This document shows, piece after piece, positions 42,491 through 57,600 of a DNA stretch of 64,000 nucleotides. The notes under the pieces are model-generated. The model was not told the DNA's origin. It saw nothing but the letters and a program-made list of their open reading frames with translations, and searched no databases. This DNA comes from the human T2T-CHM13v2.0 reference genome, Homo sapiens: assembly GCF_009914755.1 (NCBI RefSeq), contig NC_060929.1; one strand, written 5' to 3'. How positions within the stretch are numbered: the stretch's first letter is position 1; each line of letters starts with the position of its first letter. Position numbers and translations under genes: made by a program.

Positions 42491-43525
42491 AATAAATATA
42501 GTTCAACATTTTTATGTGTCAGGCATTGTGCTAGGTGTACTTGTCACTATGTCTGTCTTATCCACTTGACTATGGGCTTCTAGTAAAGAAGAAGTTTGAC
42601 TGAATTGTTTTTGTGTCTCCAGTAGTGCTTTCTACCTAATATTTAATGACATTTGCATTTGTATAATGTGGTCCATCCGATTGAATAATTAGTACTCACG
42701 GAATGGTATACTTTTATCAACAACACTCAGATGTACCTACAATCGGTTATAACTCTTTTGGTAATAATATCAATAGCTAGAAATAAGTGAATACTTTCTA
42801 AGTTGCAGACTGTACCTTAGCTCTGATGTCCACAGAAATTTGGAAAAAGGTATGAGTAATCACGGCTTGTTTTCAATATATAAAAGTCAAATGTATTTTT
42901 GTTTCTTCTACTTTTAATTCACACACAATGCTTGTATATATTTATCGGGTACCATTTGATGTTTTGATGCATGTGCACATTGTGAAAGATCAAATTAAGG
43001 TAATTTGCAAATATATCACCTCAAACATGTATCTTTTTTTGTAGTGAAAACCCTAACAATTCTCTCTTCTAGCTATTTTGAAACATACAATATATTGTTT
43101 TTAATTATAGTCACCCTACTATGTGATAGAACACCAGAACTTATTCCTCTTGTCTAATTGTAACTTAAGAAATGTCTATTTAGGTCATTTGCCCATCTTT
43201 GAAATTTGATTATTTGTTTTGTTTTTGTGTTTTGCTATTGAATTGTTTGCATTCCTTATATATTCTGATTACTGATCCCTTGTCAGATGGATAGTTTAAA
43301 TATATTATTCCATTCTGTGAGATATCTCTTCACTCTGTCGATTGTTTTCTTTGCTGTTCAAAAGCTTTTCGGATTGATTTAGTCCCAATTGCCTATTTTT
43401 GCTTTAGTTTCCTGTGCTTTTGAGGTTCCATACAAAATATCTTTGCTAAGATCAATATCCTAAAGTATTTCCCCAAATGTTTTCTTCTAGCAGCTTTCTT
43501 CTTTCTAGTAATTTTAGGTCTTACA

Positions 43526-43957
43526 TTTCATGCACATCCGTGTGAAGAGACCACCAAACAGGCTTTGTTTGAGCAACATGGCTGTTTATTTCACCTGGGT
43601 GCAGGCGGGCTGAGTCCAAAAAGAGAGTCAGCGAAGGGAGATAGGGGTGGGGCCATTTTATAGGATTTGGGTTGGTAAAGGAAAATTACAGTAAAAGGGG
43701 GTTGTTCTCTGGTGGGCAGGGGTGGGGGTCACAAGGTGCTCAGTTGGGGAGCTTCTGAGCCAGGAGAACAATTCACAGGGTTAATCACTCAGTTAAGGTG
43801 GGGCAGGAACAAATCACAATGGTGGAATATCATCAGTTAAGGTGGGGCAGGACCTTTTCACTTCTTTTGTGATTCTTCAGTTACTTCAGGCCATCTGGGC
43901 GTATACGTGCAAGTCACAGGGAATGCGATGGCTTGGCTTGGGCTCAGAGGCCTGACA
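43526..43957 (-). promoter_or_regulatory. LTR7, 3' LTR of provirus 1
   Basis: TGTCAGGCCTCTGAGCCCAAGC...CATGAAA on the minus strand; AATAAA and TATAAAA present. Confidence 0.95.
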
Positions 43958-44614
43958 TTCCTGCCTTCTTATATTAATAAGAAAAATAAAACAAAATAGT
44001 GTTGAAGTGTTGGGGTGGTGAAAATTTTTGAGGGGTGGTAGGGAGAGAGAATGGGCGATGTTTCTCAGGGCTGCTTCAAGTGGGATTAGGGGCAGCGTGG
44101 GAACCTAGAGTGGGAGAGATTAAGCTGAAGGGAGGTCTTGTGGTAAAGGGTGATATTGTGGGGATGTAAGAAGAAACATTTGTCATATAGAATGATTGGT
44201 GATGGCCTGGATACGGTTTTGTATGAATTGAGAAACTAAATGGAATAACAGAAGGAGAAAAACAGGTATAAAAGGTCTAAGAATTGGGAGGACCTAGGAT
44301 ATCTGATTAGAGAGTGCCTAAGGAGATTCAGCAGAGTCCTGCCAGCAAAGATTATTTATTTACTTCAAGAGTTTAGAGTGGCAGTTTGGGGATAGCACCA
44401 GGAGATATCAGCTGTGATGTCTTGGAGAAACAGTGTAAACCGGCAGTGTAAAGAAAAGCAGGGCATGTATGAGTAGTTGAGAACGGTGAACAGGAGTATG
44501 ACTAACAGATGAGGATGAAATTTGGGCTTCACTGAAGTAATGGGGGCTGTCTGTGAAGCCTTGTGGCAGTGCAGCCCAGGTAATTTGTTGAGCCTAATGG
44601 GTGTCAGGGTCAGT

Positions 44615-45802
44615 CTAAGTGAAGGCAAAGAGAGGCTGGGATGAAGGGTGCAAAGCAATAGTAAAGAAAGCATGTCTGAGATCCAGAACAGAATAATGGG
44701 TAGTAGAGGGAGGTATTGAGGATAGGAGAGTATATGGGTTTGGCACCACGGGGTGGATAGGCAAAACAATTTGGTTGATAAGGCGCAGATCCTGAACTAA
44801 CTTGTAAGGCTTGTCTCGTTTTAGGACAGGAAAAATGGGGGAATTGTAAGGAGAGTTTATAGGGTTTAAAAGGCCATGCTGTAACAGGCGAATGATAACA
44901 GGCTTTAATCTTTTTAAAGCGTGCTGCGGAATGGGATACTGGCATTGAGTGCGGTAAGGGTGATTAGGTTTTAATGAGATGGTAAGGGGTGCATGATCGG
45001 TCGTCAAGGAGGGAGTAGAGATATCTTATACTTGTGGGTTAAGGTGGGGGTATACAAGAGGAGGACACAAAGGAGGCTTTGGATTGGGAAGAAGGGTGGC
45101 AATGAGATACAGCTGTAGTCCAGGAATAGTCAGGGAAGCAGATAATTTAGTTAAAGTGTCTCAGCCTAATAAGGGAACTGGGCAGATGGGGATAACTAAA
45201 AAGGAGTGCTTAAAAGAGTATTGTCTAAGTTGGCACCAGAGTTGGGGAGTTTTAAGAGGTTTAGAAGCCTGGCCGCCAATACCCACAACAGTTATGGAGG
45301 CAAGGGAAACAGGCCCTTGAAAAGAAGGTAATGTGGCGTGGGTAGCCTCCGTATTGATTAAGAAGGGGACGGGCTTACCTTCCACTGTGAGAGTTACCCA
45401 TAGCTCGGCATCCGTGATGGTCAAGGGTGCTTCTGAGGTGATCGGGCAGTGTCAGTCTTCAGCTGCTAAGCCAAGAAGATCTGGGAAGGAGTCAGTCAGA
45501 GAGCCTTTGGCCAGTGTTCCAGGGGCTCTGGGAGTGGCTTCCAGGTGAGTTGAACAGTCCGATTTTCAGTGGGGTCCCACAGAGATGGGACGTGGATTAG
45601 GAGGAATCCCGGGCTGCGGGCATTCCTTGGCCCAGTGGCCAGATTTCTGGCACACGAAGCAAGCTCCTATGGGAGGAGGTTCTGGAGGAACGCGTGGCCA
45701 CTGCAGTTCAGGCGTTTGGAAGTTCTTGTGTGCTGGAGATGTGGCTGGGGTTTGTCTCACAGTGGAGGCAAGGAATTGCAACTTTTTTCTATTATTGTAC
45801 AC
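44615..45802 (-). pseudogene. HERV-H gag(NC)-pro-pol remnants of provirus 1
   Basis: CFVCQKSGHWAKEC zinc knuckle; FLINTEATHATL degenerate protease site; RT N-terminus QYPIPQ...YKLVQDLR...YSVLDLRHAFF; frames broken. Confidence 0.9.
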
Positions 45803-46762
45803 CTTGAAGGCGAGGTTAATTAAATCCTGTTGTGGGGTTTGAGGGCCAGAATTTAATTTTTGGAGTTTTATTTAATGTCAGGAGCAGATTGGGTAATAAA
45901 ATGTATTTTGAGAATAAGACGGCCTTTTGACCTTTTAGGGTCTAAGACTGTAAAGTGTCTCAGGGTTGCTGCCAAATGAGCCATGAACTGGGCTGGATTT
46001 TTATATTTGATGAAACAGAGCCTAAACACTTCTGATTTGGGATAAAGAAAAAGGAGCATTAACCTTGACTATGCCTTTAGCTCCAGCCACCTTTTTAAGA
46101 GTAAATTGCTGGGCAGGTGGGGGAGGGCTAGTCAGGGAATGAAACTGTAAGCCGGACCAGGTGTGAGGAGGGGAGAGGTGGTAAAAAGATTATAGGGTGG
46201 AGGAGCAGAGGCTGAGGAAGAATTGGGACCTAGCTCGGCCTGGCGAGGAGCAGCCTGGGGAAGAAGGGAGAGGTCAGATGGGTCTGTAGAAAAGGAAGAT
46301 TAGAAAGACTCAGCGACGCTTGGGGTTGGTACTGAGGGGACAGGTGGGAGGGAAAGAAGGAAGATTAGGGACGAGTTGCACTGGGCACAGAGACTAGGAA
46401 GGGACTGATGTGTAAAAGAATGCCTGGACGTCAGGCACCTCAGACCGTTTGCCTATTTTACAACAAGAATTATTTAGATTTTGCAGGATGGAAAAATTCA
46501 AAGTGCCATTTTCTGGCTATTTGGAACTACTGTTGAGTTTGTATTGGGGTCAAGCAGCATTGCAGAAGAAAATAAGGCGTTTAAGTTTTAGGTCAGGTGT
46601 GAGTTGAAGAGGTTTTAAGTTTTTGAGAACACAGGCCAAGGGAGTAGAAGGAGGAATGGAGGGTGGAAGGTTGCCCATAGTGAAGGAAGCAAACCTAGAG
46701 AAAAGAGAGAGTAGAGAAATGGAGGGAAGTGGTTCAGGTGTTCTCACCTTCCAGAAAAGGGG

Positions 46763-47110
46763 TTGGGGCACAGAGATAGATCAGGGTGCAGAAATAAGGG
46801 ATTGGGGTGCAGAGATATAAGAGGTTGGGGCGTGGAAATAAGGGATTGGGGCACAGAGATAAGAGGTCAGGGTGCAGAAATAAGGGATTGGGGTGCAGAG
46901 ATAAGAGGTTGGGGTGTGGAAATAAGTGATTGGGGGGTTCTTGCCCCCTAGGAAAGCGGGACTTGCCACTAAGGGTGAAGGAGAAGGGGTTGAGGGGTAC
47001 TTGCCCCTGCCCCAGGAAAGCGGGACTTGCTGCTAAGGGTGAAGGAGAAGGGGTTGAGGGGTACTTGCCCCTGCCCCAGAAAAATGGGACTTGCTGCTAA
47101 GGGTGAAGGA
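46763..47110. repeat. HERV-H leader tandem repeats (~20-bp units, then ~64-bp units)
   Basis: Alternating ggggtgcagaaataagggatt / gagataagaggtt units at 46763-46937, then about 3 copies of ttgccc...gggacttgc...taagggtgaaggag. Confidence 0.85.
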
Positions 47111-47548
47111 CCAAGGCAGGTGTCCCTGCGTGGTCTGACACCTTTGAAACGTGGGTGAATAATCAGAGAGGTGTCCCTGAAATGATTAAACACCAAGGGA
47201 AGGCTGCCTTCCCAGTCCGTGACCGGTGCCAGAGTTTTGGGTCCACGGATAAAACGTGTCTCCTTTGTCTCTACCAAAAGAATTGAAAGGAATTGAAATT
47301 AAGAGAAGGGAGAGATAGAAATGTGGGGCCAAGATTGAAAGGAGAAAGAGGTTGAGGGATAGTGAGGGAGGTTGGAGAAGAGAGTAAAAAGAGGCTGCTT
47401 ACCGGATTTGAAATTGGTGAGATGTTTCTCAGGCTGGTTGTTCTGAGGACCTGAGGTCATTGGTGGATCTTTCTCATGGAGCAAAGAACAAGAGGACAGG
47501 GTATTGATCTCCCAAGGGAGGTCCCCCGATCCGAGTCATGTCTCCAAA

Positions 47549-47976
47549 TTTCATGCGCGTCCGTGTGAAGAGACCACCAAACAGGCTTTGTGTGAGCAAC
47601 ATGGCTGTTTATTTCACCTGGGTACAGGTGGGCTGAGTCCGAAAAGAGAGTCAGCAAAGGGAGTTAAGGGTGGGGCTGTTTTATAGGATTTGGGTAGGTA
47701 AAGGAAAATTACAGTCAAAGGGGGTTGTTCTCTGGTGGGCAGGGGCTGGGGCCACAAGGTGCTCACTTGGGGAGCTTCTGAGCCAGGAGAATGATTCACA
47801 GGGTTAATCAGTTAAGGTGGGGCAGGAACAAATCACAATGGTGGAATGTCATCAGTTAAGGCGGGGCAGGACCTTTTCACTTCTTTTGTGATTCTTCAGT
47901 TACGTCAGGCCATCTGGGCGTATACATGCAAGTCACAGGGGATGCGATGGCTTGGCTTGGGCTCAGAGACCTGACA
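47549..47976 (-). promoter_or_regulatory. LTR7, 5' LTR (promoter) of provirus 1
   Basis: Followed by the PBS; leader splice donor CCG|GTAAGC with GT at 47402-47401; about 25 substitutions and one 4-bp indel versus its 3' LTR (hand count). Confidence 0.95.
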
Positions 47977-48911
47977 TTATATTTAAGTTTTAATCCATTT
48001 TGAGTTAATTTTTGCATATGGTGAGAGATAGGGGTCTAGTTCCATGTCTGCATGTACATACTCAGTTTCCTCCACACTATTTATTGAAGTGATTGCCCTT
48101 TCCCCAACGTGTATTTTTGGCATCTATGTTGAAAATCAGTTGGTTGTAAGTCTGTGGATTTATTTCTAACTGTATTCTAGTCCCTTGGTGTATATGCCTG
48201 TTTTTATGCCACTACCATGCTATTTTGGTTATTACAGCTTTGTAGTACATTTTGAAGCCAGGTATGTGATCCCTCTAGCTTGGTTCTGTTTGCTTAAGAT
48301 TGATTTGGCTATTTGGGGTCTTTTGTGGTTCCATACACATTTTAGGATTTTTCTTTCTATTTCTATGAAGAATATCATGGATATTTTGATAGGTATTACA
48401 TTGAATCTCTAGATTGTTTTGGGTAGTATGGACACTTTAACAATTCCAATTCTTTAAATCAATGAACATGGGGGTATTTTTCTGTATCCTTCTATTTATT
48501 TGTGTCCTCTTCCATTTTTCATCAATGTTTTATAGTTTTTGTTGTAGATATTTTTCACCTTCTTGGTTAGGTTTATTCTTAGGAATCTTATTTTTTGTGC
48601 TATTGTACTGTAAATGAGATTTTTTTCTTGATTTTTAAAGATAGCTTAATAATGCCATCTAAAAATACTACTGATTATCGTAAGTTGATTTTGTGTCCTG
48701 CTACTTTACTAAATTTGTTTATTAATTATAACAGGTTTTGGTGGAGTCTTTAGGGCTTTCCGTCTCTAAGATCATGTTGTCTGCAAACAGGAACGTTTTG
48801 ACGTTTTTCTCTTCAATTTGGATGCCTTTTATCTCTTTCTCTTGTCTTGTTGCTCTGGCTAGGACTTCTGGTACTATGTTGAATAGAAATGATGAATGTG
48901 GGCATCCTTAT

Positions 48912-49343
48912 TTTCATGCGCATCTGTGTGAAGAGACCACCAAACAGGCTTTGTGTGAGCAATAAAGCTTTTAATCACCTGTGTGCAGGTGGGCTGAGTC
49001 CGAAAAGAGAGTCAGCAAAGGGAGATAGGGGTGAGGCCATTTTATAGGATTTGGGAAGGTAATGGAAAATTACAGTAAAAGGGGGTTGTTCTCTGGTGGG
49101 CAGGGGCGGGGGTCACAAGGTGCTCAGTGGGGGAGCTTCTGAGCCAGGAGAAGGAAATTCACAGGGTTAATCATTCAGTTAAGGTGGGGCAGGAACAAAT
49201 CACAATGGTGGAATGACATCAGTTAACACAGGGTAGGGCCTTTTCACTTCTTTTGTGATTCTTCAGTTACTTCAGGCCATCTGGGCATATACGTGCAAGT
49301 CACAGGGGATGCGATGTCTTGGATTGGGCTCAGAGGCCTGACA
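48912..49343 (-). promoter_or_regulatory. LTR7, 3' LTR of provirus 2 (ATTAAA-type R region)
   Basis: R reads GTGATTAAAAGCTTTATTGCTC on the minus strand, unlike the other three LTRs (GAAATAAACAGCCATGTTGCTC). Confidence 0.95.
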
Positions 49344-49949
49344 TTCCTGCCTTCTTATATTAATAAGAAAAATAAAACAAAATAGTGTTGAAGTGTTGGG
49401 GTGGTGAAAATTTTTGAGGGGTGGTAGGGAGAGAGAATGGGCGATGTTTCTCAGGGCTGCTTCAAGTGGGATTAGGGGCAGCGTGAGAACCTAGAGTGGG
49501 AGAGATTAAGCTGAAGGGAGGTCTTGTGGTAAGGGGTGATATTGTGGGGATGTTAGAAGAAACATTTGTCATATAGAATGATTGGTGATGGCCTGGATAC
49601 GGTTTTGTATGAATTGAGAAACTAAATGGAATAACAGAAGGAGAAAAACAGGTATAAAAGGTCTAAGAATTGGGAGGACCTAGGATATCTGATTAGAGAG
49701 TGCCTAAGGAGATTCAGCAGAGTCCTGCCAGCAAAGATTATTTATTTACTTCAAGAGTTAAGAGTGGCAGTTTGGGGATAGCACCAGGAGATATCAGCTG
49801 TGATGGCTTGGAGAAACAGTGTAAACCGGCAGTGTAAAGAAGAGCAGGGCATGTATGAGTAGTTGAGAATGGTAATAGGAGTATGACTAGACAGAAAATA
49901 GTAGGGATGACAAGTTTTTTTTGGGAGGGGGGCACAGTCTAAGTTGGTC

Positions 49950-52130
49950 TGGTGTCTGGAATGAGACTGGGGCCTAATAAAAAGGAGCGTCTATACAGGA
50001 GCTTAAATGGGCTGTACCCTGTAGCATTCTGACAGGCCTGAATTCTGAGAAGGGAAAGTGGTAGAAGTATTGTCCAGTCCTTTTTAAGTTGGTGGCTGAG
50101 CTTGGTGAGGCGTGTTTTTAAAAGACCTTTAGTCCATTCTACTTTTCTTGAAGATGGAGGACCTTAAGGGATATAAAGGTTTCACTGAATACTAAGAGCC
50201 TGAAAAACTGCTTGGCTGATTTGACTAATAAAGGCTCATCTGTTATCAGACTGTATTGAGGTGGGAAGGCTAAACTGAGGAATTATGTCTGACAGAAGGG
50301 AATAAATGACTGCCGTGGCCTTCTCAGACCCTGTACGAAAGGCCTTTACTTATTCAGTGGAAGTGTCTATTTAGACTAAGGGGTATTTTAGTTTCCTGAC
50401 TTGGGCATGTTGAGTAAAGCTAATTTGCCAGTCCTGGGTGGGGGCAAATCCTCGAGCTTGATGTGTAGGGAAGGGAGGGGGCCTGAATAATCCCTGAGGA
50501 GTAGTAGAATAGCAGATGGAACACTGAGAAGTTATTTCCTTGAGGGTAGATTTCCACGATGGAAAAGAAATGAGAGGTTCTAAGAGGCAGGCTAGTGGCT
50601 TGTACTATAGCATAACCTGCCTTTGCTGGTGTGTGGCGATTAGGCCTGGTGGAACCGCCATCAATAAATCAAGCATGATCAGGGTGAGGAAGAGGAAAGA
50701 AGGAAATTTGGGGAAATGGGGTGAATGTCAGGTGGATCAGAGAGATACAGTCATGGGGGTCAGGTGTGGTATCAGGAATAATGTGGGAGGCCGGATTGAA
50801 GTCTGGGCCAGGAACAATGATAATTGTGGGAGACTCAGAAAAGAGTGAGTATAGCTGAAGGAGCCGGGAAGCAGAAAGTATATGCGTCAGGTATGAAGAA
50901 GAAAATAGATTTTGGAAGTTATGAGAACTGTACAGTGAGTTGAGCATAGTTGGGGATTTTGAGGGCCTCTAAAAGTATTAAAGCAGCAGCAGCCGCTGCA
51001 CGCAGACATGAGGGCTAGGCTAAAACAGTAAGGTCAAGTTGTTTGCACAGAAAGGCTACAGGGTGCGGTCCTGGCTCTTGTGTAAGAATTCTGACCACAC
51101 TAACTATGCCTAGGAAGGAAAGGAGTTGTTGTTTTGTAAGGGATTGAGGTTTGGGAGATTAATCGGACATGATCAGCAGGGAAAGCACGTATGTTTTTAT
51201 GAGAATTATGCCGAGATAGGTAACAGGTGAGGATAAAATTTGGGCTTGACTGAAGTAATGGGGGCTGTCTGTGAAGCCTTGCGGCAGTACAGCCTAGGTA
51301 ATTTGCTGAGCCTAATGGGTCTCAGGGTCAGTCTAAGTGAAAGCAAAGAGAGGCTGGGATGAGGGGTGCAGGGGAATAGTGAAAAAATCATCTTTAAGAT
51401 CAAGCATGGAATAGTGAGTTGTGGAGGAAGGTATTGAGGACAAAAGAGTGTACGGGTTGGGCACCACGGGGTGGAGAGGCAAAACAATTTGGTTGATAAG
51501 GTGCAGATCCTGAACTAACTTGTAAGGCTTGTCTGGTTTTAGGACAGGTAAAATGGGGGAATTGTAAGGAGAGTTTATAGGGTTTAAAAGGCCATGCTGT
51601 AGCAGGCAAGTGATAACAGACTTTAATCTTTTTAAAGCGTGCTGGGGGATGGGATATTGGCATTGAGTGAGGTAAGGGTGATTAGGTATTAATGAGATGG
51701 TAAGGGGTGCATGATCGGTCGCCAAGGAGGGAGTAGAGGTATCTTATACTTGTGGGTTAAGGTGGGGGGATAGAAGAGGAGGACGCAAAGGAGACTGGAT
51801 TGGGAAGAAGGGCAGCAATGAGATACAGCTGTAGTCCAGGAATAGTCAGGGAAGCAGATAATTTAGTTAAAGTGTCTCAGACTAATAAGGGAACTGGGCA
51901 GATGGGGATAACTAAAAAGGAGTGCTTAAAAGATTATTGTCTAAGTTGGCACCAGAGTTGGGGAGTTTTAAGAGGTTTAGAAGCCTGGCCATCAATACCC
52001 ACAACAGTTATGGAGGCAAGGGAAACAGGCCCTTGAAAAGAAGGTAATGTGGAGTGGGTAGCCTCCATATTAAGAAGGGGATGGGCTTACCTTCCACTGT
52101 GAGAGTTACCTGAAGCTCGGTGTCCTTGAT
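49950..52130 (-). pseudogene. HERV-H pro-pol remnants of provirus 2 (protease, RT N-terminus, connection/RNase H region)
   Basis: ORF 51333-51725 (YKLVQDLHLIN...YSMLDLKDDFFTIPL) and 50669-50947 (PHDCISLIH); keeps ~1.3 kb absent from provirus 1. Confidence 0.85.
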
Positions 52131-52321
52131 GGTGTAGGGTGCTTCCGAGGCAATCGGGCAGTGTCAGTCTTCAGCTGCTAAGCCAAGAAGATCTGGGAAG
52201 GAATCAGAGAGCCTTGGGCTAGAGCTTTAGGGGCTCTAGGAATGGCTGCCAGGTGAGCTGGGCAGTCTGATTTCCAGTGGGTCCCTGCACAGATGGGACA
52301 TGGCTTGGGAGGAATCCCAGG

Positions 52322-53176
52322 CTACGGGCATTCCTTGGCCCAGTGGCCAGATTTCTGGCACTTGAAGCAAGATCCTGTTGGAGGAAGTCTTGTAGGAATG
52401 CTTGACTGCTGCGGCTTAGGCATTTTGAAGTTCTCATATGCAGGAGGTGTGGCTGGGTTTTGTCTCACAGCAGAGGCAAGTAATTGTAACTCAGAAACGC
52501 GTTGCCGTCTGGCTGCTTCCTCTCTATTATTGTACACCTTGAAGGTGAGGTTGATTAATTCCTGTTGTGGGGTTTGAGGGCCAGATTCTAGTTTTTGAAG
52601 TTTTTTCCTAATGTCAGGAGTGGATTGGGTGATAAAATGCATGTTAAGAATAAGGCGGCCTTCTGGCCCCTCTGGGTCTAGGGAGGTAAAGCGTCTAAGG
52701 GTTGCCGCTAAGCGGGCCATGAACCGGGCTGGGTTTTCATCTTTACCTTGGGTAGTTTCTTTAAGTTTGTCACAATTAACACCTTTGTAAGCTGCTTTTT
52801 TAAGCCCTACGACTAGGCAGGAAAACATGTAATATCGCCTAGCTATACCTGGGGAATTTGCCTGGTAGTTCCATTGGGGATCCTCTCGGGGAACTGCTCT
52901 AATGCCTTCCTGGAGGTCTGGCTCATGAAGCCAGCAGTTATCAGCATGAGATTGGGCCAGAGAAAAAATTCTTTCCCGTGCATCTGAGGAGAGGGTAGAC
53001 GTCAGGATGACATTTAAGTCACTCCAGGTTAAGTTGTAGGACAGAGTTAGATATTGGAATTCCTGTATATATTTAGTGGGGTCTGATGAGAAAGAGCCTA
53101 AACATTGACTGATCTGAGAGAGGTCTGATAGAGAAAAAGGTACATGTGCCCTGACTGTGCCTTCAGCTCCAGCCAC
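52322..53176 (-). CDS. gag: Uninterrupted HERV-H Gag frame (capsid plus NC zinc knuckle); expression unknown
   Basis: 284 codons with HVPFSLSDL, the MHR-like TQGKDENPARFMARL and CFKCQKSGHWAKEC. The track start is GTG; the first in-frame ATG is at 52828. The frame is stop-free back to 53392. Confidence 0.6.
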   Translation of the reverse strand: MAGAEGTVRAHVPFSLSDLSQISQCLGSFSSDPTKYIQEFQYLTLSYNLTWSDLNVILTSTLSSDARERIFSLAQSHADNCWLHEPDLQEGIRAVPREDPQWNYQANSPGIARRYYMFSCLVVGLKKAAYKGVNCDKLKETTQGKDENPARFMARLAATLRRFTSLDPEGPEGRLILNMHFITQSTPDIRKKLQKLESGPQTPQQELINLTFKVYNNREEAARRQRVSELQLLASAVRQNPATPPAYENFKMPKPQQSSIPTRLPPTGSCFKCQKSGHWAKECP

Positions 53177-53311
53177 CTCTCTAAGAGGAAATTGTTGGGC
53201 AGGTGGGGAAGAGCTAGTCGCGGAACTAAACTGTAAGCCAGACCGGGTGTGAGGAGGGGAGGTGGTAGAAGGATTATAAGGTGAAGGAGCAGAGGCTGAG
53301 GAAGAATTGGG

Positions 53312-54072
53312 GGTGGAGAAAACAACATTTTTGTTGAGATTTAGTTTATTTGAATACTTGGGATAGCCAGGAGTTAAGGAGATACCTTTTAGTCATACAC
53401 ATCCACATGTCAAAGCCATCACATTGCAGCTATGGGTATACATTTGGGTGCCATGCACTTAATGATGAAAGTTTAGATGGGAAGATGTTGGGCATTATGA
53501 AAGAGAGAGAAAAGCAAGGGAAAGAGTAAAGGCCAAAGAGAGTATCAGGTGGTCAGAATGTCAAATTTTGCAGATAAGTGGGCAGCAAAGTATTTTTCGT
53601 GCTTGGGTGATCACTGGCAACATTAAGGAGAACTTTTAGTCTAATGCTGGGAGTAGGGTCTAGAAATAAAAGTCCCAAGTGAGGCAAAAATAATGAAAGA
53701 GAGAGAGAGACAGAGCTCTCCATCTGGTATGGTTTATTTTGTGACTTGAACTGTGATGTGCTGTTAGGGTGGCCAGATTGAGTTAAGCTGATCAACCATC
53801 CCAGTTTGCTCAGGACAGTCCCGTTTTAGCACGAAAAATCTGCATCCCAGGAATCTCCCTAGTTCTGGGCAAGCTGGGATGGTTTGTCACCCTACAATTC
53901 TTAGGGCAACATACGGCACTTAGTAGGTTTTCAGTAAGTATTTGTTCAGTGAATGAAAAAAAAAAAAACAGAGACAGATCAACATCTCTGGGGCTAAGTT
54001 CCTTAAGTTTGTAAAATGAGGTTAGAAATATCTGTAGTAGCCAGCACATGAGGTTATTTTGACAACCAGATG
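53312..54072. other. Non-viral host-genome segment inside provirus 2
   Basis: No similarity to the provirus 1 leader. Contains L2-like text (~53330-53700), MER94, an L2 3' end plus poly-A (~53900-53968) and a MIR-like core (~53985-54030). Confidence 0.88.
53765..53894. mobile_element. MER94 (hAT-Blackjack MITE)
   Basis: TIRs TAGGGTGGCCA / TGTCACCCTA, palindromic body aaccatcccagtttgctcagga...tctgggcaagctgggatggtt, 130 bp. Confidence 0.8.
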
Positions 54073-54075
54073 TTT

Positions 54076-54206
54076 CGGCACCAAATTTCATGCGCGCCCC
54101 TGTGAAGAGACCACCAAACAGGCTTTGTGTGAGCAACAAAAAACGGCACCAAATTTCATGTGTGTCTGCGTGAAGAGACCACCAAACAGGTTTTGTGTGA
54201 GCAACA
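54076..54206 (-). repeat. Tandem duplication of a 63-bp R-end/U5/partial-PBS unit
   Basis: cggcaccaaatttcatg...gtgtgagcaaca at 54076-54138 and 54144-54206, separated by AAAAA. Confidence 0.95.
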
Positions 54207-54606
54207 TGGCTGTTTATTTCACCTGGGTGCTGGGGGGCTGAGTCCGAAAAGAGAGTCAGGGAAGGGAGATAAGGGTGGGGCTGTTTTACAGGATTTGGGT
54301 AGGTAAAGGAAAATTACAGTCAAAGGGGGTTTGTTCTCTGGTGGGCAGGAGTGGGGGTCGCAAGGTGTTCAGTGGGGGTGCTTTTTGAGCCAGGATGAGG
54401 CAGGAAAAGGATTTTCACAAGGTAATATCATCAGTTAAGGCAAGGACCAGCCATTTACACTTCTTTTGTGGTGGAATGTCATCAGTTAAGGTGGGGCAGG
54501 GCGTATTCACTTCTTTTGTGATTCTTCAGTTACTTCAGGCCATCTGGGTGTATACGTGCAAGTCACAGGGGATGTGATGGCTTGGCTTGGGCTCAGAGGC
54601 CTGACA
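54154..54606 (-). promoter_or_regulatory. LTR7up-like 5' LTR of provirus 2
   Basis: Minus strand GACATTCCACCACAAAAGAAGTGTAAATGGC...CTCATCCTGGCTCAAAAAGCACCCCCAC matches my recollection of LTR7up. 453 bp versus 428-432 bp for the other LTRs. TATA is mutated to TGTAAAA (54284-54290). Confidence 0.8.
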
Positions 54607-57600
54607 CTTATAGACCTTAGAAGAAAAACTTTCAACCTTTCATTATTCACTGAGATATTAGCTATGGATATGTCATATATGGCTTTTATCATTTTCAGGC
54701 ACATATCTTCTGTGCCTAATTTGTTGAGACTTTTTATCATGAAGGGATGTTGAATTTTGTCAATTGTTTTGTCTGCATTTATTGAAATAATAGTATAATT
54801 TTTGCTCTTCATTTTGTTAATATGATGAATAATATTTATTGATTTGCAAATGTTGAACCATCCTTGCTTCCATAGGATGAACCATACTTAATCATGGTGA
54901 ATTATTTTTTTAATGTGCTATAGAATTCAGTTTGCTATTTTGTTGAGGACTTTTGCCTCTGTATTTATCAGAGATATTGGCCTACAGATTTCTTTTTTGT
55001 GATTGTTGTGCCCTTGTATAGTTGGAATAAGGATAATGCCAGCCGTATAGAATGATTTTGGAAGAATTCTGTCCTCTTTAATTTTCTGGAGTAGATTGAG
55101 AATAACTGGTATTAGTTCTTCAAGTGTTAGAATTCAGCAATGAAGCCATCAGGTCCTGGGCTTTTCTTTGATAGAAATTTTTTTTATTAATAATTCAATC
55201 TTGTAACTCATTATTAGTCTGTTCAGATTTTCTGTTTCTTCATGATTCAATCTTGGTAAGTTGTATTTGTTCAGGAATTTATCCATTTCTGATAGGTTCT
55301 CTAATTTTCTGGCATATGGTTGTTAATAATAGCCTCAGATGATCCTTTGTATTTCTGTGGAATTAGTTGTAACATCTCCTTTTAGTCTCTGATTTTATTT
55401 ATCTGAGTCTTTTCCTTTTTTTCTCAATTAGTCTGTCTAAAAGTTTATGTGTTTTGTTTATTTTTTTAAAAAGCAACTCTTCATTAACTTTTGCACTTTT
55501 AATTCTTAGTTTCATTGATTTGTTTTATCTTTATGACTTATTTCCTTCTACTAAGTAAGGGTTTTGTTTGTCCTTGTTTTTCTTACTCCTTGAGGTGCAA
55601 TATTAAATTTTATATTTGAGACTTTTCTTCTTCTTTGATGTAAATGCATTGCTATAAATTTTCCCTCTGAGTACTACTTTTGCTGTATCCCATAGGTTTT
55701 GGTATGTGTGCTTCCATTCTCTTTTGTTTCTAGAAGTTTTTAAAATTTACCTTTTAATATTTTTATAATTCATTCGTTGTTCAGGAGCATGTTTTTTAAA
55801 ATTCCCATGTATCTGTATGGTTTGCAAAGTTCCTCTTGTTATTGATTTCTACTTCCATACCATTGTAGTAAGCACCAATTCTTAATACAATTTCAATTTT
55901 TTACAATTTGTTGAGACTTATTTTGTGGCCCACTAAATGGTTTATCTTGGATGATGTTACACGTGCCCTAGAGAATAATGTATATTCTACTAATGTTGGA
56001 TGGAAAGTTCTGTATATATCCTTAGGTCCATTTTGTCTTAAGTATAGCTCAATTTCAGTAGTTTCTTAATTTTCTGTCTGCTTAATCTGTCCATTGTTGG
56101 AAGTAGGGTATTGAAGTCCACAACTATTATTGTTTTGCTATCTGTTTCTCCCTTCATGTTCATTAACGTTTGCTTCATTAGGTGCTCCAATATTGTGTGC
56201 ATATATATTTACAATTGTTATGTCTTCTTGATAAGCTGGTGCTTCATCATTAAATGATGACGTTTGTCTCTTGTGGCAGTTTTTGACTTGAAGTCTATTT
56301 TACATGACATAAATATAGTCACCTCTGCTCTATTTTGGTTACCATTTTCATGAAATATCTTCTTCCTCCCATTTACTTTCAGCCTATGTGTGTCCTTAAG
56401 GTTTAAGTGTGAATCTCTCAAAGGCAGAATATATTTGGATCTTCTTTTTGTAAAATGCATTTAGCCCCTCTGTGTCCTTGGATTGGAGAATTTAATTTAC
56501 GTTCAAAGTAATTATTAATAGGTAAGGACTTACTACTGTCAGGTTGTTAATTTCCTACTGGTTGTTTTGTAAATGCTTTGTTCCTTTTTTCCTCTCTTGT
56601 TTATCTTTGTGATTTGCTGATTTTCTTCAGTGTTAATTTTGATTTTTTTATTATACATGTATTTGCTATAGTTTTATTGCCTCATGAACATCATGAGGTT
56701 ATCATAGAACATCTTATAGTTAATAATAGACAATTTGACATTGATAACTTCAGTCACATACAAAAGCTCTATGCTTTTACCCTTCTCCCCACAATTTATA
56801 ATTTCGATGTCACAATTTATATTTTATATTACATATTTCTTAACAATTTGTTGCAACTATTATTACTTTTGACTGTTTTGACTTTTAACCTTCACACTAG
56901 ATATATGTGTGAATTATAATACGTCATAACAGTATTGGTCTATTTTGGACTTGACTATATATTTACCTTTATCAGTGAACTTTTTACTTTCATATGTTTT
57001 CATGTTAGTGATTAGTATCTTTTCATTTCTACTTTAAGAACTCCCTTACGCATTTCTTATAGGATAGGTTTAGTGATGATATAGTCTCTCAACTTTTGCT
57101 TATCTGGAAAATACTTTTTTTTTCCTTTATTTCTGAAGTACCTCCTTGCTGGGTATAGTATTCTTCACTAGCAATTTTTTTTCTTTTGGCATTTAAATGC
57201 ACCATCCCATTCTTTCCTGGCCTGCAGGATTTCTGCTGAGAAATCAGCTGATAGTTTAATAGAGATTCCCTTATACATGATTTGATGCTTTTCTCTTGCT
57301 GCTTTTAAAATTGTCTGTTTGTCTTTGACTTTTGGCAATTTAATTAAATGTGCCTCAGTGAGGACTTCTTTGCGTTAAGTCTGTTTGGGAATCCTTGAGT
57401 TTTATGCATCTGGCTGTCCACATCTCTTCCAAAACTTAGAAACTTTTCAACAATTATTTCATTAAATAAGCTTTCTGTTCCTATGTTTGTCTTTCCTCCT
57501 TCTTGAATTCCTATGAATGTTTGTTTGCTCAGCTGTGTTCCATAAATCCTGTAGGATCTCTTCAATCTTTTTCATTCTTTTTTTTTCCTTCTAACTGGGT

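What the first reader, a model, noticed from the sequence alone, without database searches (positions are those of the whole stretch)
53312..54072. HERV-H provirus carrying ~760 bp of captured ancient host DNA in place of its leader
Seen: one TSD (CTTAT) brackets 48912-54606. Between the PBS remnant and gag, the viral leader (46228-47530 in provirus 1, ~1.3 kb) is missing. In its place are degraded L2 pieces, a MER94 and a MIR-like core. Known: these families stopped moving long before primate HERV-H existed, so they cannot have inserted into the provirus. Inference: a block of genomic DNA was copied in from elsewhere, either by template switching to co-packaged cellular RNA or by ectopic repair or conversion from another LTR7 locus. 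I did not find a donor copy in this window.
Basis: partly seen in the sequence, partly recalled or inferred. Interest (0 to 1): 0.8.

Follow-up and report, generated by a model that had tools for sequence, protein, structure and literature searches.

The report
HERV-H provirus carrying another provirus's flank
A human endogenous retrovirus copy on chromosome 5 has lost its leader and carries instead about 760 bases of ordinary host DNA copied from just downstream of a related provirus on chromosome 6, a rare fossil of a retrovirus picking up host sequence.

Summary
Provirus 2 (48912-54606, minus strand) has a perfect CTTAT target duplication. It lacks the ~1.3 kb leader. In its place, 53312-54072 is non-HERV DNA.

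In the whole T2T assembly this block has one other full-length copy, chr6:115604690-115605453 (95% in the search, 96.3% on realignment). There it is the host DNA directly downstream of the 3' LTR of a complete HERV-H provirus with its own TAATG duplication. Chr5 and chr6 are colinear through the LTR end, an odd U5+partial-PBS tandem unit, and the flank. So the copy went from chr6 to chr5.

On the gag side the two sources overlap by exactly 14 nt (53298-53311).

The block diverged from its donor (K2P 0.038) about as much as the chr6 LTR pair (0.036), so capture followed the chr6 integration closely. No other provirus carries the block, so it never propagated.

I could not settle the mechanism. 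I favour a reverse-transcriptase template switch into a chr6 LTR/read-through transcript (about 0.5). LTR-primed ectopic DNA repair is close behind (about 0.4). Orthologous ape loci would decide.

It is a new example of a known kind of event.

The parts
48907..48911 (.). Left copy of the 5-bp target-site duplication CTTAT of provirus 2
   Evidence: Read directly. The L1 flanks are adjacent in 7 of 9 other L1 copies.
48912..49345 (-). 3' LTR of provirus 2, short LTR7-type form, discordant with its 5' LTR
   Evidence: K2P to its own 5' LTR is 0.164. At least 39 other genomic copies are 93-95% identical. It shares 0 of 4 provirus-1-lineage markers.
49346..53297 (-). HERV-H internal region (env-side remnant, pol, gag) of provirus 2
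   Evidence: Homology to provirus 1 and to the chr6 provirus. The pol part is up to 96% and the gag part up to 95% identical to other genomic HERV-H copies.
53298..53311 (-). 14-nt overlap (sense CCCAATTCTTCCTC) shared by the chr6 flank and HERV-H just upstream of gag; the recombination junction
   Evidence: The chr6 match runs to 53298. HERV-H homology starts at 53311 in 6 of 6 other copies.
53312..54072 (-). Captured host DNA, copied from the 3' flank of the chr6 HERV-H provirus
   Evidence: The only other full-length copy in the assembly is chr6:115604690-115605453, 95% identical. Realigned: 96.3% identity, K2P 0.038 over 752 sites.
53770..53898 (.).
   Evidence: Thirty dispersed genomic matches at 72-85% identity. 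Inverted arms 53784-53816 and 53862-53894, 33 nt, 79% complementary. The family name was not tested.
54073..54085 (-). Remnant of a second U5+PBS unit: last 3 nt of U5, 8 nt of the tRNA-His-type PBS (TGGTGCCG), and TT
   Evidence: Alignment with chr6, where this unit is complete; chr5 lacks 60 nt of it.
54086..54153 (-). First U5+PBS tandem unit: last 52 nt of U5, T5, 9 nt of PBS, TT
   Evidence: The unit junction occurs at only 4 sites in 3 loci genome-wide; the reversed-pattern control gave 0.
54154..54606 (-). 5' LTR of provirus 2, long LTR7-type form
   Evidence: At least 40 other genomic copies are 93-96% identical. It shares 0 of 3 chr6-lineage U3 markers and one rare R/U5 variant with the chr6 5' LTR.
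54607..54611 (.). Right copy of the target-site duplication CTTAT
   Evidence: Read directly.

Best explanation
Shown: window 53312-54072 is a copy of the host DNA that lies immediately downstream, in the viral sense orientation, of the 3' LTR of a HERV-H provirus at chr6:115605593-115611458. It sits in provirus 2 where the PBS and the ~1.3 kb leader should be.

Shown: on the LTR side, chr5 and chr6 are colinear (LTR end, U5+PBS unit, unit remnant, flank). On the gag side the join is a 14-nt identity.

Inferred, and favoured: the capture happened during the reverse transcription that produced provirus 2.
1. The young chr6 provirus made a transcript that ran from, or through, its 3' LTR into the flank.
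2. That RNA was packaged together with a HERV-H genome of a different gag type.
3. Minus-strand synthesis coming up through gag jumped at the 14-nt match into the flank RNA.
4. It copied the flank back to the U5/PBS-like units.
5. Plus-strand transfer was completed through R-U5 and the partial PBS.
6. The product integrated on chr5 and made the CTTAT duplication.

Without a PBS and leader the new provirus could not replicate further. The short-form 3' LTR of provirus 2 would then be a later, separate DNA-level conversion.
For: Donor and direction:
- The block has a unique second copy on chr6.
- That chr6 copy abuts a provirus whose own TAATG duplication brackets the LTR plus two U5+PBS units.
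- Chr5 carries the same LTR-unit-flank order inside a provirus with an intact CTTAT duplication.

Junction: the overlap is exactly 14 nt.

Timing: block vs donor K2P 0.038 (28 substitutions in 752 sites) against chr6 LTR pair K2P 0.036. The capture came soon after the chr6 integration, when the family was still moving.

U3 of the provirus 2 5' LTR is not chr6-derived. It shares 0 of 3 chr6-lineage rare variants (LTR positions 191, 242, 346; panel of 39 LTRs). This fits U3 coming from a helper genome. The switch to chr6 material lies after position 346, which is about 30 nt past the TATA-like box and so about where R should begin (the R start is inferred).

The provirus 2 R/U5 shares a rare A at position 416 with the chr6 5' LTR, not with the 3' LTR next to the flank. 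Genome-wide, 19 sites carry A and 945 carry G. Only an RNA links the chr6 5' R-U5 with the chr6 3' flank.

The unit-2 deletion in chr5 starts at PBS nucleotide 8 and ends 3 nt before the U5 end. Both are reverse-transcription landmarks.

Provirus 2's gag type differs from that of chr6 (about 80-84% identity, while provirus 1 and chr6 are 92-94% alike). So provirus 2 is a recombinant.

Background from passages read: host capture through read-through RNA and non-homologous template switching (PMC4997597); RT-level recombination in HERV-H (PMC8912925).
Against: There is no RNA signature in the block: no splicing and no added poly(A). The A-run at 53957-53969 is also in the donor.

The two LTRs of provirus 2 should have been identical at integration, yet they differ at subfamily level (K2P 0.164). 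The model therefore needs an extra, unexplained DNA-level event.

Provirus 2 shows another DNA-level exchange. The tract 49324-49889 is about 98.7% identical to provirus 1, against 92.6% for the LTRs. Ectopic repair at this locus is therefore plausible.

The position-416 sharing is a single site. Chance coincidence over the 3 private R-U5 sites examined is roughly 0.03-0.06.

The provirus 2 5' LTR carries 10-11 private rare variants against about 6 for each chr6 LTR. If real, provirus 2 would be older than chr6, which this model forbids. The difference is not significant.

As a rough estimate from recalled rates, not from any call, non-homologous RT capture is rarer per integration than ectopic repair is per locus over millions of years.

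There is no APOBEC-type pattern: 2 of 5 sense-strand G-to-A differences are in GG context.
Confidence: 0.5

Rival explanations
1. DNA-level ectopic repair after integration. Provirus 2 integrated with a normal PBS and leader. A later double-strand break or gap near the PBS was repaired by invasion of its LTR end into the homologous 3' LTR of the chr6 provirus. Synthesis ran on through the units into about 770 bp of chr6 flank. The new strand then annealed to the other broken end at the 14-nt match, with loss of the 1.3 kb leader (synthesis-dependent strand annealing coupled to microhomology joining).
For: The donor has a homologous LTR directly beside the block, and the two loci are colinear from the LTR into the flank. 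A 14-nt microhomology suits annealing-type joining. Provirus 2 shows other DNA-level exchanges: discordant LTRs inside an intact target duplication and a tract nearly identical to provirus 1. A crossover near the LTR's 3' end (after position 346) is natural for a break near the PBS. The private-variant count of the provirus 2 5' LTR (10-11 against about 6) allows provirus 2 to be older than the chr6 provirus.
Against: The capture has to fall within roughly the first third of the chr6 provirus's lifetime (K2P 0.038 against 0.036). This model predicts that only weakly. It needs 1.3 kb of loss on one side. It gives no reason for the unit-2 deletion boundaries at PBS nucleotide 8 and the U5 end. 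It gives no reason for the rare position-416 variant shared with the chr6 5' LTR rather than the adjacent 3' LTR. Provirus 2 shares 0 of 2 private R-U5 variants of the chr6 3' LTR, though those may postdate the event. The donor is on another chromosome, while many LTR7 copies, including provirus 1 about 5 kb away, were closer.
Confidence: 0.4
2. Three-LTR intermediate. A full read-through chr6 genome and a second genome recombined during reverse transcription into a double-length provirus (LTR-genome-LTR-units-flank-gag...LTR). This integrated on chr5. It later lost the first genome by recombination between the outer 5' LTR and the middle LTR.
For: It has the same donor, junction and timing evidence as the best explanation. 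Complex shared-LTR elements produced by template switching are described for plant LTR retrotransposons (PMC1950507, abstract read).
Against: The middle LTR would be the chr6 3' LTR, yet the provirus 2 5' LTR shares 0 of 3 chr6-lineage U3 markers. The LTR-LTR crossover would therefore have to lie in the last ~110 nt. The model also needs more steps.
Confidence: 0.04
3. Not a capture at all: an assembly chimera, a HERV-H leader variant, or old repeats that inserted into the provirus in place.
For: None found. Read-level support for the junctions could not be checked here.
Against: The block is 3.7% diverged from chr6 with 4 indel events, so it is not a collapsed or misplaced chr6 read. Only 2 full-length copies exist genome-wide, and one lies outside any provirus, so it is not a leader variant. 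The block is one colinear 760-bp piece of chr6, not separate insertions.
Confidence: 0.02

Closest known systems
Retroviral transduction of downstream cellular sequence through read-through or LTR-initiated RNA and non-homologous template switching (the oncogene-capture model, as summarised in PMC4997597)
   Same: The donor host DNA lies directly downstream of a provirus in the sense orientation. It now sits inside a provirus with normal LTR ends and a target duplication. The downstream junction is a short sequence identity.
   Different: The captured DNA is repeat-rich non-coding sequence, not exons. The upstream join is the LTR end itself, so the PBS and leader are lost and the product is a dead end. 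It occurred in the germ line of an endogenous family. An RNA intermediate is not demonstrated.
Ectopic gene conversion and recombination between dispersed HERV LTRs (HERV-K and HERV-H literature; PMC6298018 seen only in search listings)
   Same: Sequence passed between proviruses on different chromosomes, guided by LTR homology. Provirus 2 also has discordant LTRs within an intact target duplication.
   Different: The transferred tract leaves the homologous region and copies about 770 bp of unique donor flank. It ends in a 14-nt microhomology rather than in homology.
L1 and SVA 3' transduction
   Same: The downstream flank of a source element is carried to a new locus.
   Different: Here the flank sits inside the element next to the 5' LTR, not at its 3' end before a poly(A) tail. 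There is no L1-type target duplication or added poly(A) tail at the block.
Gene-fragment capture by plant LTR retrotransposons (review PMC13317346, seen only in a search listing)
   Same: Host sequence lies between the LTRs of an LTR element.
   Different: Those captured elements often propagate. This one is a single copy, and its donor is the flank of a sibling element.

Membership tests
HERV-H provirus (LTR7-type LTRs plus HERV-H internal region) | Two LTR7-type LTRs in the same orientation, bracketed by a 5-bp target-site duplication | tested here: met
   CTTAT on both sides. Each LTR has at least 39 genomic relatives at 93-96% identity. The two LTRs belong to different forms (K2P 0.164).
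HERV-H provirus (LTR7-type LTRs plus HERV-H internal region) | tRNA-His-type primer binding site and leader after the 5' LTR | tested here: not met
   Only 8-9 nt PBS pieces remain inside the U5+PBS units, and the ~1.3 kb leader is absent.
HERV-H provirus (LTR7-type LTRs plus HERV-H internal region) | Internal gag/pol homology to other HERV-H copies | tested here: met
   Gag part up to 95% and pol part up to 96% identical to other genomic copies.
RT-mediated transduction of a provirus's downstream flank | Donor host DNA directly downstream of a provirus, in the same transcriptional orientation | tested here: met
   The block abuts the chr6 3' LTR plus units, inside-out of the TAATG duplication.
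RT-mediated transduction of a provirus's downstream flank | Non-homologous or microhomology junction with viral sequence on the 3' side of the captured block | tested here: met
   14-nt overlap at 53298-53311.
RT-mediated transduction of a provirus's downstream flank | The capture is as old as the integration of the carrier provirus (carrier never existed without the block) | not testable with these tools
   This needs orthologous loci in other primates. Only rough equality of divergences is available.
RT-mediated transduction of a provirus's downstream flank | The two LTRs of the carrier are alike, since they are identical at integration | tested here: not met
   K2P 0.164 with subfamily-level indels. 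The model needs a later conversion of the 3' LTR, and no donor for that was identified.
Ectopic LTR-primed DNA repair or gene conversion | Homologous LTR adjacent to the copied tract in the donor, and colinearity from homology into the tract | tested here: met
Ectopic LTR-primed DNA repair or gene conversion | Recipient LTR carries variants of the donor's adjacent LTR near the tract | tested here: inconclusive
   0 of 3 chr6-lineage U3 markers and 0 of 2 private R-U5 variants of the chr6 3' LTR are shared. The latter may postdate the event.
   No repeat library was available. Two sub-blocks have 30 and 3 dispersed matches at 72-88% identity. No repeat matches were found for 53312-53770.
L1-mediated insertion of a cellular RNA copy | Added poly(A) tail and L1-type target duplication around the block | tested here: not met
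   The A-run at 53957-53969 is internal and also present in the donor. No duplication flanks the block.

The most novel reading that the evidence does not exclude
Provirus 2 is a germ-line fossil of the first step of retroviral transduction. A single full-length read-through transcript of the newly integrated chr6 provirus supplied both its 5' R-U5 (marked by the rare position-416 variant) and its 3' flank. It was co-packaged with a genome of another HERV-H lineage. Reverse transcriptase stitched them together at a 14-nt match. The odd U5+partial-PBS units of the chr6 lineage made completion possible by offering a stand-in for the missing PBS.
Probability: 0.35. Interest if true: 0.7.

Novelty: new member of a known kind. 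Interest (0 to 1): 0.55.

Why it matters
Capture of host DNA by retroviruses is known mainly from acutely transforming viruses and from cell-culture experiments. In those cases only the finished, selected products are seen.

Here both the donor locus and the unselected dead-end product survive in one genome, with both junctions readable at base level. If comparative genomics shows that the block arrived together with the provirus, this would document that HERV-H virions packaged LTR-flank chimeric RNAs and recombined them in the primate germ line.

If instead the block arrived later, it is a clean example of LTR-guided interchromosomal repair that copies unique flank. That process can move regulatory DNA between chromosomes.

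Either way it explains how repeats far older than HERV-H can sit inside a provirus. A HERV survey raised a similar puzzle for old MaLR fragments in younger HERV chains (PMC4724089, passages read).

Tried and rejected
1. Leader remnant. I first read 'GAAACATCT' after the PBS piece as a remnant of the normal leader, because the same 9-mer occurs in the provirus 1 leader. The chr6 alignment shows it is the U5 end plus the chr6 flank. Rejected.

2. Whole 5' LTR overwritten by the chr6 3' LTR. Rejected: 0 of 3 chr6-lineage U3 markers are shared, and chr6 LTRs are not among the 40 best matches of that LTR.

3. 3' LTR converted from neighbouring provirus 1. Rejected for the LTR itself: 0 of 4 provirus-1-lineage markers are shared, and K2P is 0.078 against 0.061 for the provirus 1 pair. 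A separate near-identical internal tract does exist.

4. Provirus 2 as progeny of the chr6 provirus throughout. Rejected: its gag is only about 80-84% identical to chr6 gag and belongs to a type best matched at 95% on chr9.

5. Donor within the window. None found.

6. APOBEC-type editing as an RT signature. Not seen. An excess of GC-to-AT differences towards the chr5 copy (14 against 5) is unexplained.

7. Dating provirus 2 from private variants of its 3' LTR. Uninformative, because a converted LTR inherits its donor's variants.

9. Five literature searches found no description of this locus or of a HERV carrying another provirus's flank. The supplementary LTR7 tables of PMC8912925 were not opened, so the subfamily labels of these LTRs remain unassigned.

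Full report
**What is in the window.** The window carries two HERV-H proviruses, both antisense on the + strand.
- Provirus 1 (P1) spans 43525-47981.
- Provirus 2 (P2) spans 48912-54606.

P2 is bracketed by CTTAT at 48907-48911 and 54607-54611, directly against the LTR ends. It sits in an old L1. In 7 of 9 other copies of that L1 family, the sequences left and right of P2 map next to each other (extrapolated gap -2 to +4 bp). The other 2 of 9 matched only the left flank. P2 is therefore one integration event.

A BLAST of P2 against P1 aligns the 3' LTR and the env-side region, pol, gag down to 53311, and the 5' LTR. Nothing in P1 matches 53312-54080. The P1 leader, 46228-47543, has no partner in P2. 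In 6 of 6 other HERV-H copies tested, homology to P2 starts exactly at window 53311. In the 13 gag relatives examined, the 5' LTR lies about 1.2-1.3 kb further on. P2 thus lacks the PBS 3' part and the whole leader.

**The donor.** A search of the whole T2T assembly with 53312-54072 gave 35 matches, all 35 candidates scored.
- One was the block itself.
- One was a full-length match at chr6:115604690-115605453, 95% identical.
- Thirty were short matches (72-85%) to query 459-587.
- Three were short matches (84-88%) to query 604-654.

The short matches show that the block contains old dispersed repeats. One is a small element with 33-nt terminal inverted repeats. I had no repeat library, so the names L2, MER94 and MIR are not tested. 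Nothing repeat-like was detected for 53312-53770.

**What the chr6 locus is.** I fetched 30 kb around the chr6 match.
- A complete HERV-H provirus lies at chr6:115605593-115611458, antisense on the + strand, with a canonical leader.
- The shared block is the DNA immediately beyond its 3' LTR. In the viral sense orientation that is directly downstream.
- The provirus has its own 5-bp duplication, TAATG, on both sides.
- Inside that duplication the 3' LTR is followed by two extra tandem units of 68 nt. Each unit is TT, 9 nt of the tRNA-His-type PBS (TGGTGCCGT), TTTTT, and the last 52 nt of U5.
- These units were therefore part of the viral DNA that integrated.
- To the far side of the shared block, chr6 continues as non-HERV DNA.

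**Colinearity and direction.** The alignment of chr5 53230-54640 with chr6 shows the same order in both: LTR, unit 1, unit 2, flank. In chr5, unit 2 lacks 60 nt. What remains is TT, TGGTGCCG and the final AAA of U5. The first bases of the flank also lack 8 nt between two CAT repeats.

Chr5 therefore carries, inside a provirus, the very junction between the chr6 provirus and chr6 host DNA. The copy went from chr6 to chr5.

**The gag-side junction.** The chr6 flank reads ...CCACC-CCCAATTCTTCCTC-TTGAC. HERV-H reads ...AAGT-CCCAATTCTTCCTC-AGCC. P2 has the chr6 base before these 14 nt and the HERV-H base after them.

**Uniqueness.** No other provirus carries the block. The U5+PBS unit junction occurs at only 4 sites in 3 loci genome-wide, and the reversed-pattern control gave 0.
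- chr5 P2.
- chr6, twice.
- chr1:228553336, where one unit lies between a 5' LTR and a full PBS. The 3' LTR of that provirus has none.

**Timing.** Kimura two-parameter (K2P) distances are:

| Comparison | K2P | Non-CpG K2P |
|---|---|---|
| Block, chr5 vs chr6 (28 substitutions in 752 sites) | 0.038 | 0.033 |
| chr6 LTR pair | 0.036 | 0.026 |
| P2 5' LTR vs chr6 3' LTR | 0.064 | 0.043 |
| P2 5' LTR vs chr6 5' LTR | 0.064 | 0.036 |
| P1 LTR pair | 0.061 | 0.043 |
| P2 5' LTR vs P2 3' LTR | 0.164 | 0.152 |

The capture cannot predate the chr6 integration, yet it is as diverged as the chr6 LTR pair. It therefore followed the integration closely. With neutral rates that I recall (about 1-2 x 10^-9 per site per year, not from a call) this is of the order of 10-17 million years ago.

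**P2 is a mosaic.**
- Its 5' LTR is a long LTR7-type form and its 3' LTR a short form. Both forms are abundant in the genome.
- Its gag region (52200-53311) is only 80-84% identical to P1 and to chr6, which are 92-94% alike there. It is nevertheless an ordinary HERV-H gag type, best matched at 95% on chr9.
- The three closest gag relatives have long-form 5' LTRs. The long-form 5' LTR is therefore probably P2's own, and the short 3' LTR is the replaced one.
- The 3' LTR is not a copy of P1's LTRs. It shares 0 of 4 P1-lineage markers (panel of 39).
- Separately, 49324-49889 differs from P1 at only about 9 positions, against 37 differences in the adjacent 434-bp LTR. This looks like a recent local conversion between the neighbouring proviruses.

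**How much of the P2 5' end came from chr6.** I used a panel of 39 other long-form LTRs. I counted only how often the focal copies' own bases occur in the panel.
- The two chr6 LTRs share three rare variants, at LTR positions 191, 242 and 346. The P2 5' LTR has none of them. Its U3 is therefore not chr6-derived, and the switch to chr6 material lies after position 346.
- Position 346 is about 30 nt after the TATA-like box, so about where R should start (the R start is inferred from general promoter layout).
- P2 shares one rare variant, A at position 416 in R/U5, with the chr6 5' LTR. The chr6 3' LTR and the units do not have it. Genome-wide the A form occurs at 19 sites and the G form at 945.
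- P2 shares none of the 2 private R-U5 variants of the chr6 3' LTR.
- The chance of one such coincidence over the three private R-U5 sites examined is roughly 0.03-0.06. This is suggestive, not decisive.

**Mechanism.** Two routes fit the anatomy.

Route A is capture during reverse transcription. A transcript from or through the chr6 3' LTR into its flank is co-packaged with another HERV-H genome. Minus-strand synthesis jumps from gag into the flank RNA at the 14-nt match. Completion goes through R-U5 and the partial PBS of the units. This is the classical route of host capture (PMC4997597, passages read). RT-level recombination is accepted for HERV-H (PMC8912925, passages read).

Route B is ectopic repair after integration. 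The broken LTR end of P2 invades the chr6 3' LTR, copies on into the flank, and anneals at the 14-nt match.

For route A:
- The early timing.
- U3 not from chr6, with the switch near the start of R.
- The position-416 variant, which links the chr6 5' LTR with the chr6 3' flank. Only a full-length read-through RNA does that.
- The unit-2 deletion boundaries at PBS nucleotide 8 and the U5 end.
- The leader being simply skipped rather than deleted.

For route B:
- P2 shows other DNA-level exchanges.
- The LTR pair is discordant, and route A cannot produce that.
- My rough estimate, from recall, is that ectopic repair is the commoner process.
- The P2 5' LTR has somewhat more private variants (10-11) than either chr6 LTR (about 6).

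No RNA hallmark and no APOBEC-type pattern is present. I put route A at about 0.5 and route B at about 0.4. A three-LTR intermediate gets about 0.04. It is disfavoured by the U3 markers. Artefact or leader variant gets about 0.02.

**Comparison with what is known.** Functionally the result resembles retroviral transduction of a downstream flank, or LTR-guided interchromosomal conversion that overruns the homology. It is not an L1-type 3' transduction, since there is no added poly(A) tail and no L1-type duplication. It is not a propagating captured element.

Five literature searches found no description of this locus or of a HERV provirus carrying the flank of another provirus. A HERV survey remarks that very old MaLR fragments occur inside younger HERV chains and asks for other mechanisms (PMC4724089, passages read).

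**Verdict.** The finding is real and the donor is identified. The event is a single dead-end capture dated close to the chr6 integration. It is a new example of a known kind of process. Orthologous primate loci would decide between the RNA and DNA routes.

Noticed in passing
L012 9456-9592 (chr6:115605456-115605592); L020 1499-1566 (chr1:228553334-228553401); window 54073-54153: A small HERV-H lineage carries tandem 68-nt units made of TT, 9 nt of PBS, T5 and the last 52 nt of U5. The unit junction occurs at only 4 sites in 3 loci genome-wide. On chr6 two units sit after the 3' LTR but inside the TAATG duplication, so the viral DNA end was aberrant at integration. On chr1 one unit sits between the 5' LTR and a full PBS, and the 3' LTR has none. 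How the units arose and why their number differs between the two ends is unexplained.
   Followed up: partly
window 49324-49889 and 43937-44503: Neighbouring proviruses 1 and 2 differ at only about 9 positions over ~550 bp of the internal region next to the 3' LTR. The adjacent LTRs differ at 37 positions in 434 bp. This is a sharp boundary that looks like a recent local gene conversion.
   Followed up: partly
window 48912-49345 versus 54154-54606: The two LTRs of provirus 2 belong to different LTR7-type forms (K2P 0.164) although the 5-bp target duplication is perfect. The donor of the short-form 3' LTR was not identified. It is not provirus 1.
   Followed up: partly
window 53298-54072 versus chr6:115604676-115605456: Between the two copies of the captured block, GC-to-AT differences towards the chr5 copy outnumber the reverse 14 to 5 (sense strand C>T 9 and G>A 5, against T>C 4 and A>G 1). 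Only 3 are at CpG. Polarity is unknown without an outgroup.
   Followed up: no
window 43520-43525 and 47982-47986: The target duplication of provirus 1 is imperfect (TTACA on one side, TTATA on the other). Its right flank is also L1-like.
   Followed up: no
window 46750-47100: The leader of provirus 1 contains a run of tandem ~40-60 bp repeats (gggattggggtgcagagataagaggt... and gcgggacttgc...aagggtgaagg...). The chr6 provirus leader matches this region at several offsets, which suggests variable copy number between proviruses.
   Followed up: no
window 47230-48429 and 54262-54777: The two RefSeq 'enhancer' features in the hub's table coincide with the 5' LTR (plus part of the leader) of provirus 1 and with the 5' LTR of provirus 2. 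Transcripts from the provirus 2 LTR would run straight into the captured chr6 DNA, because the normal leader is gone.
   Followed up: no
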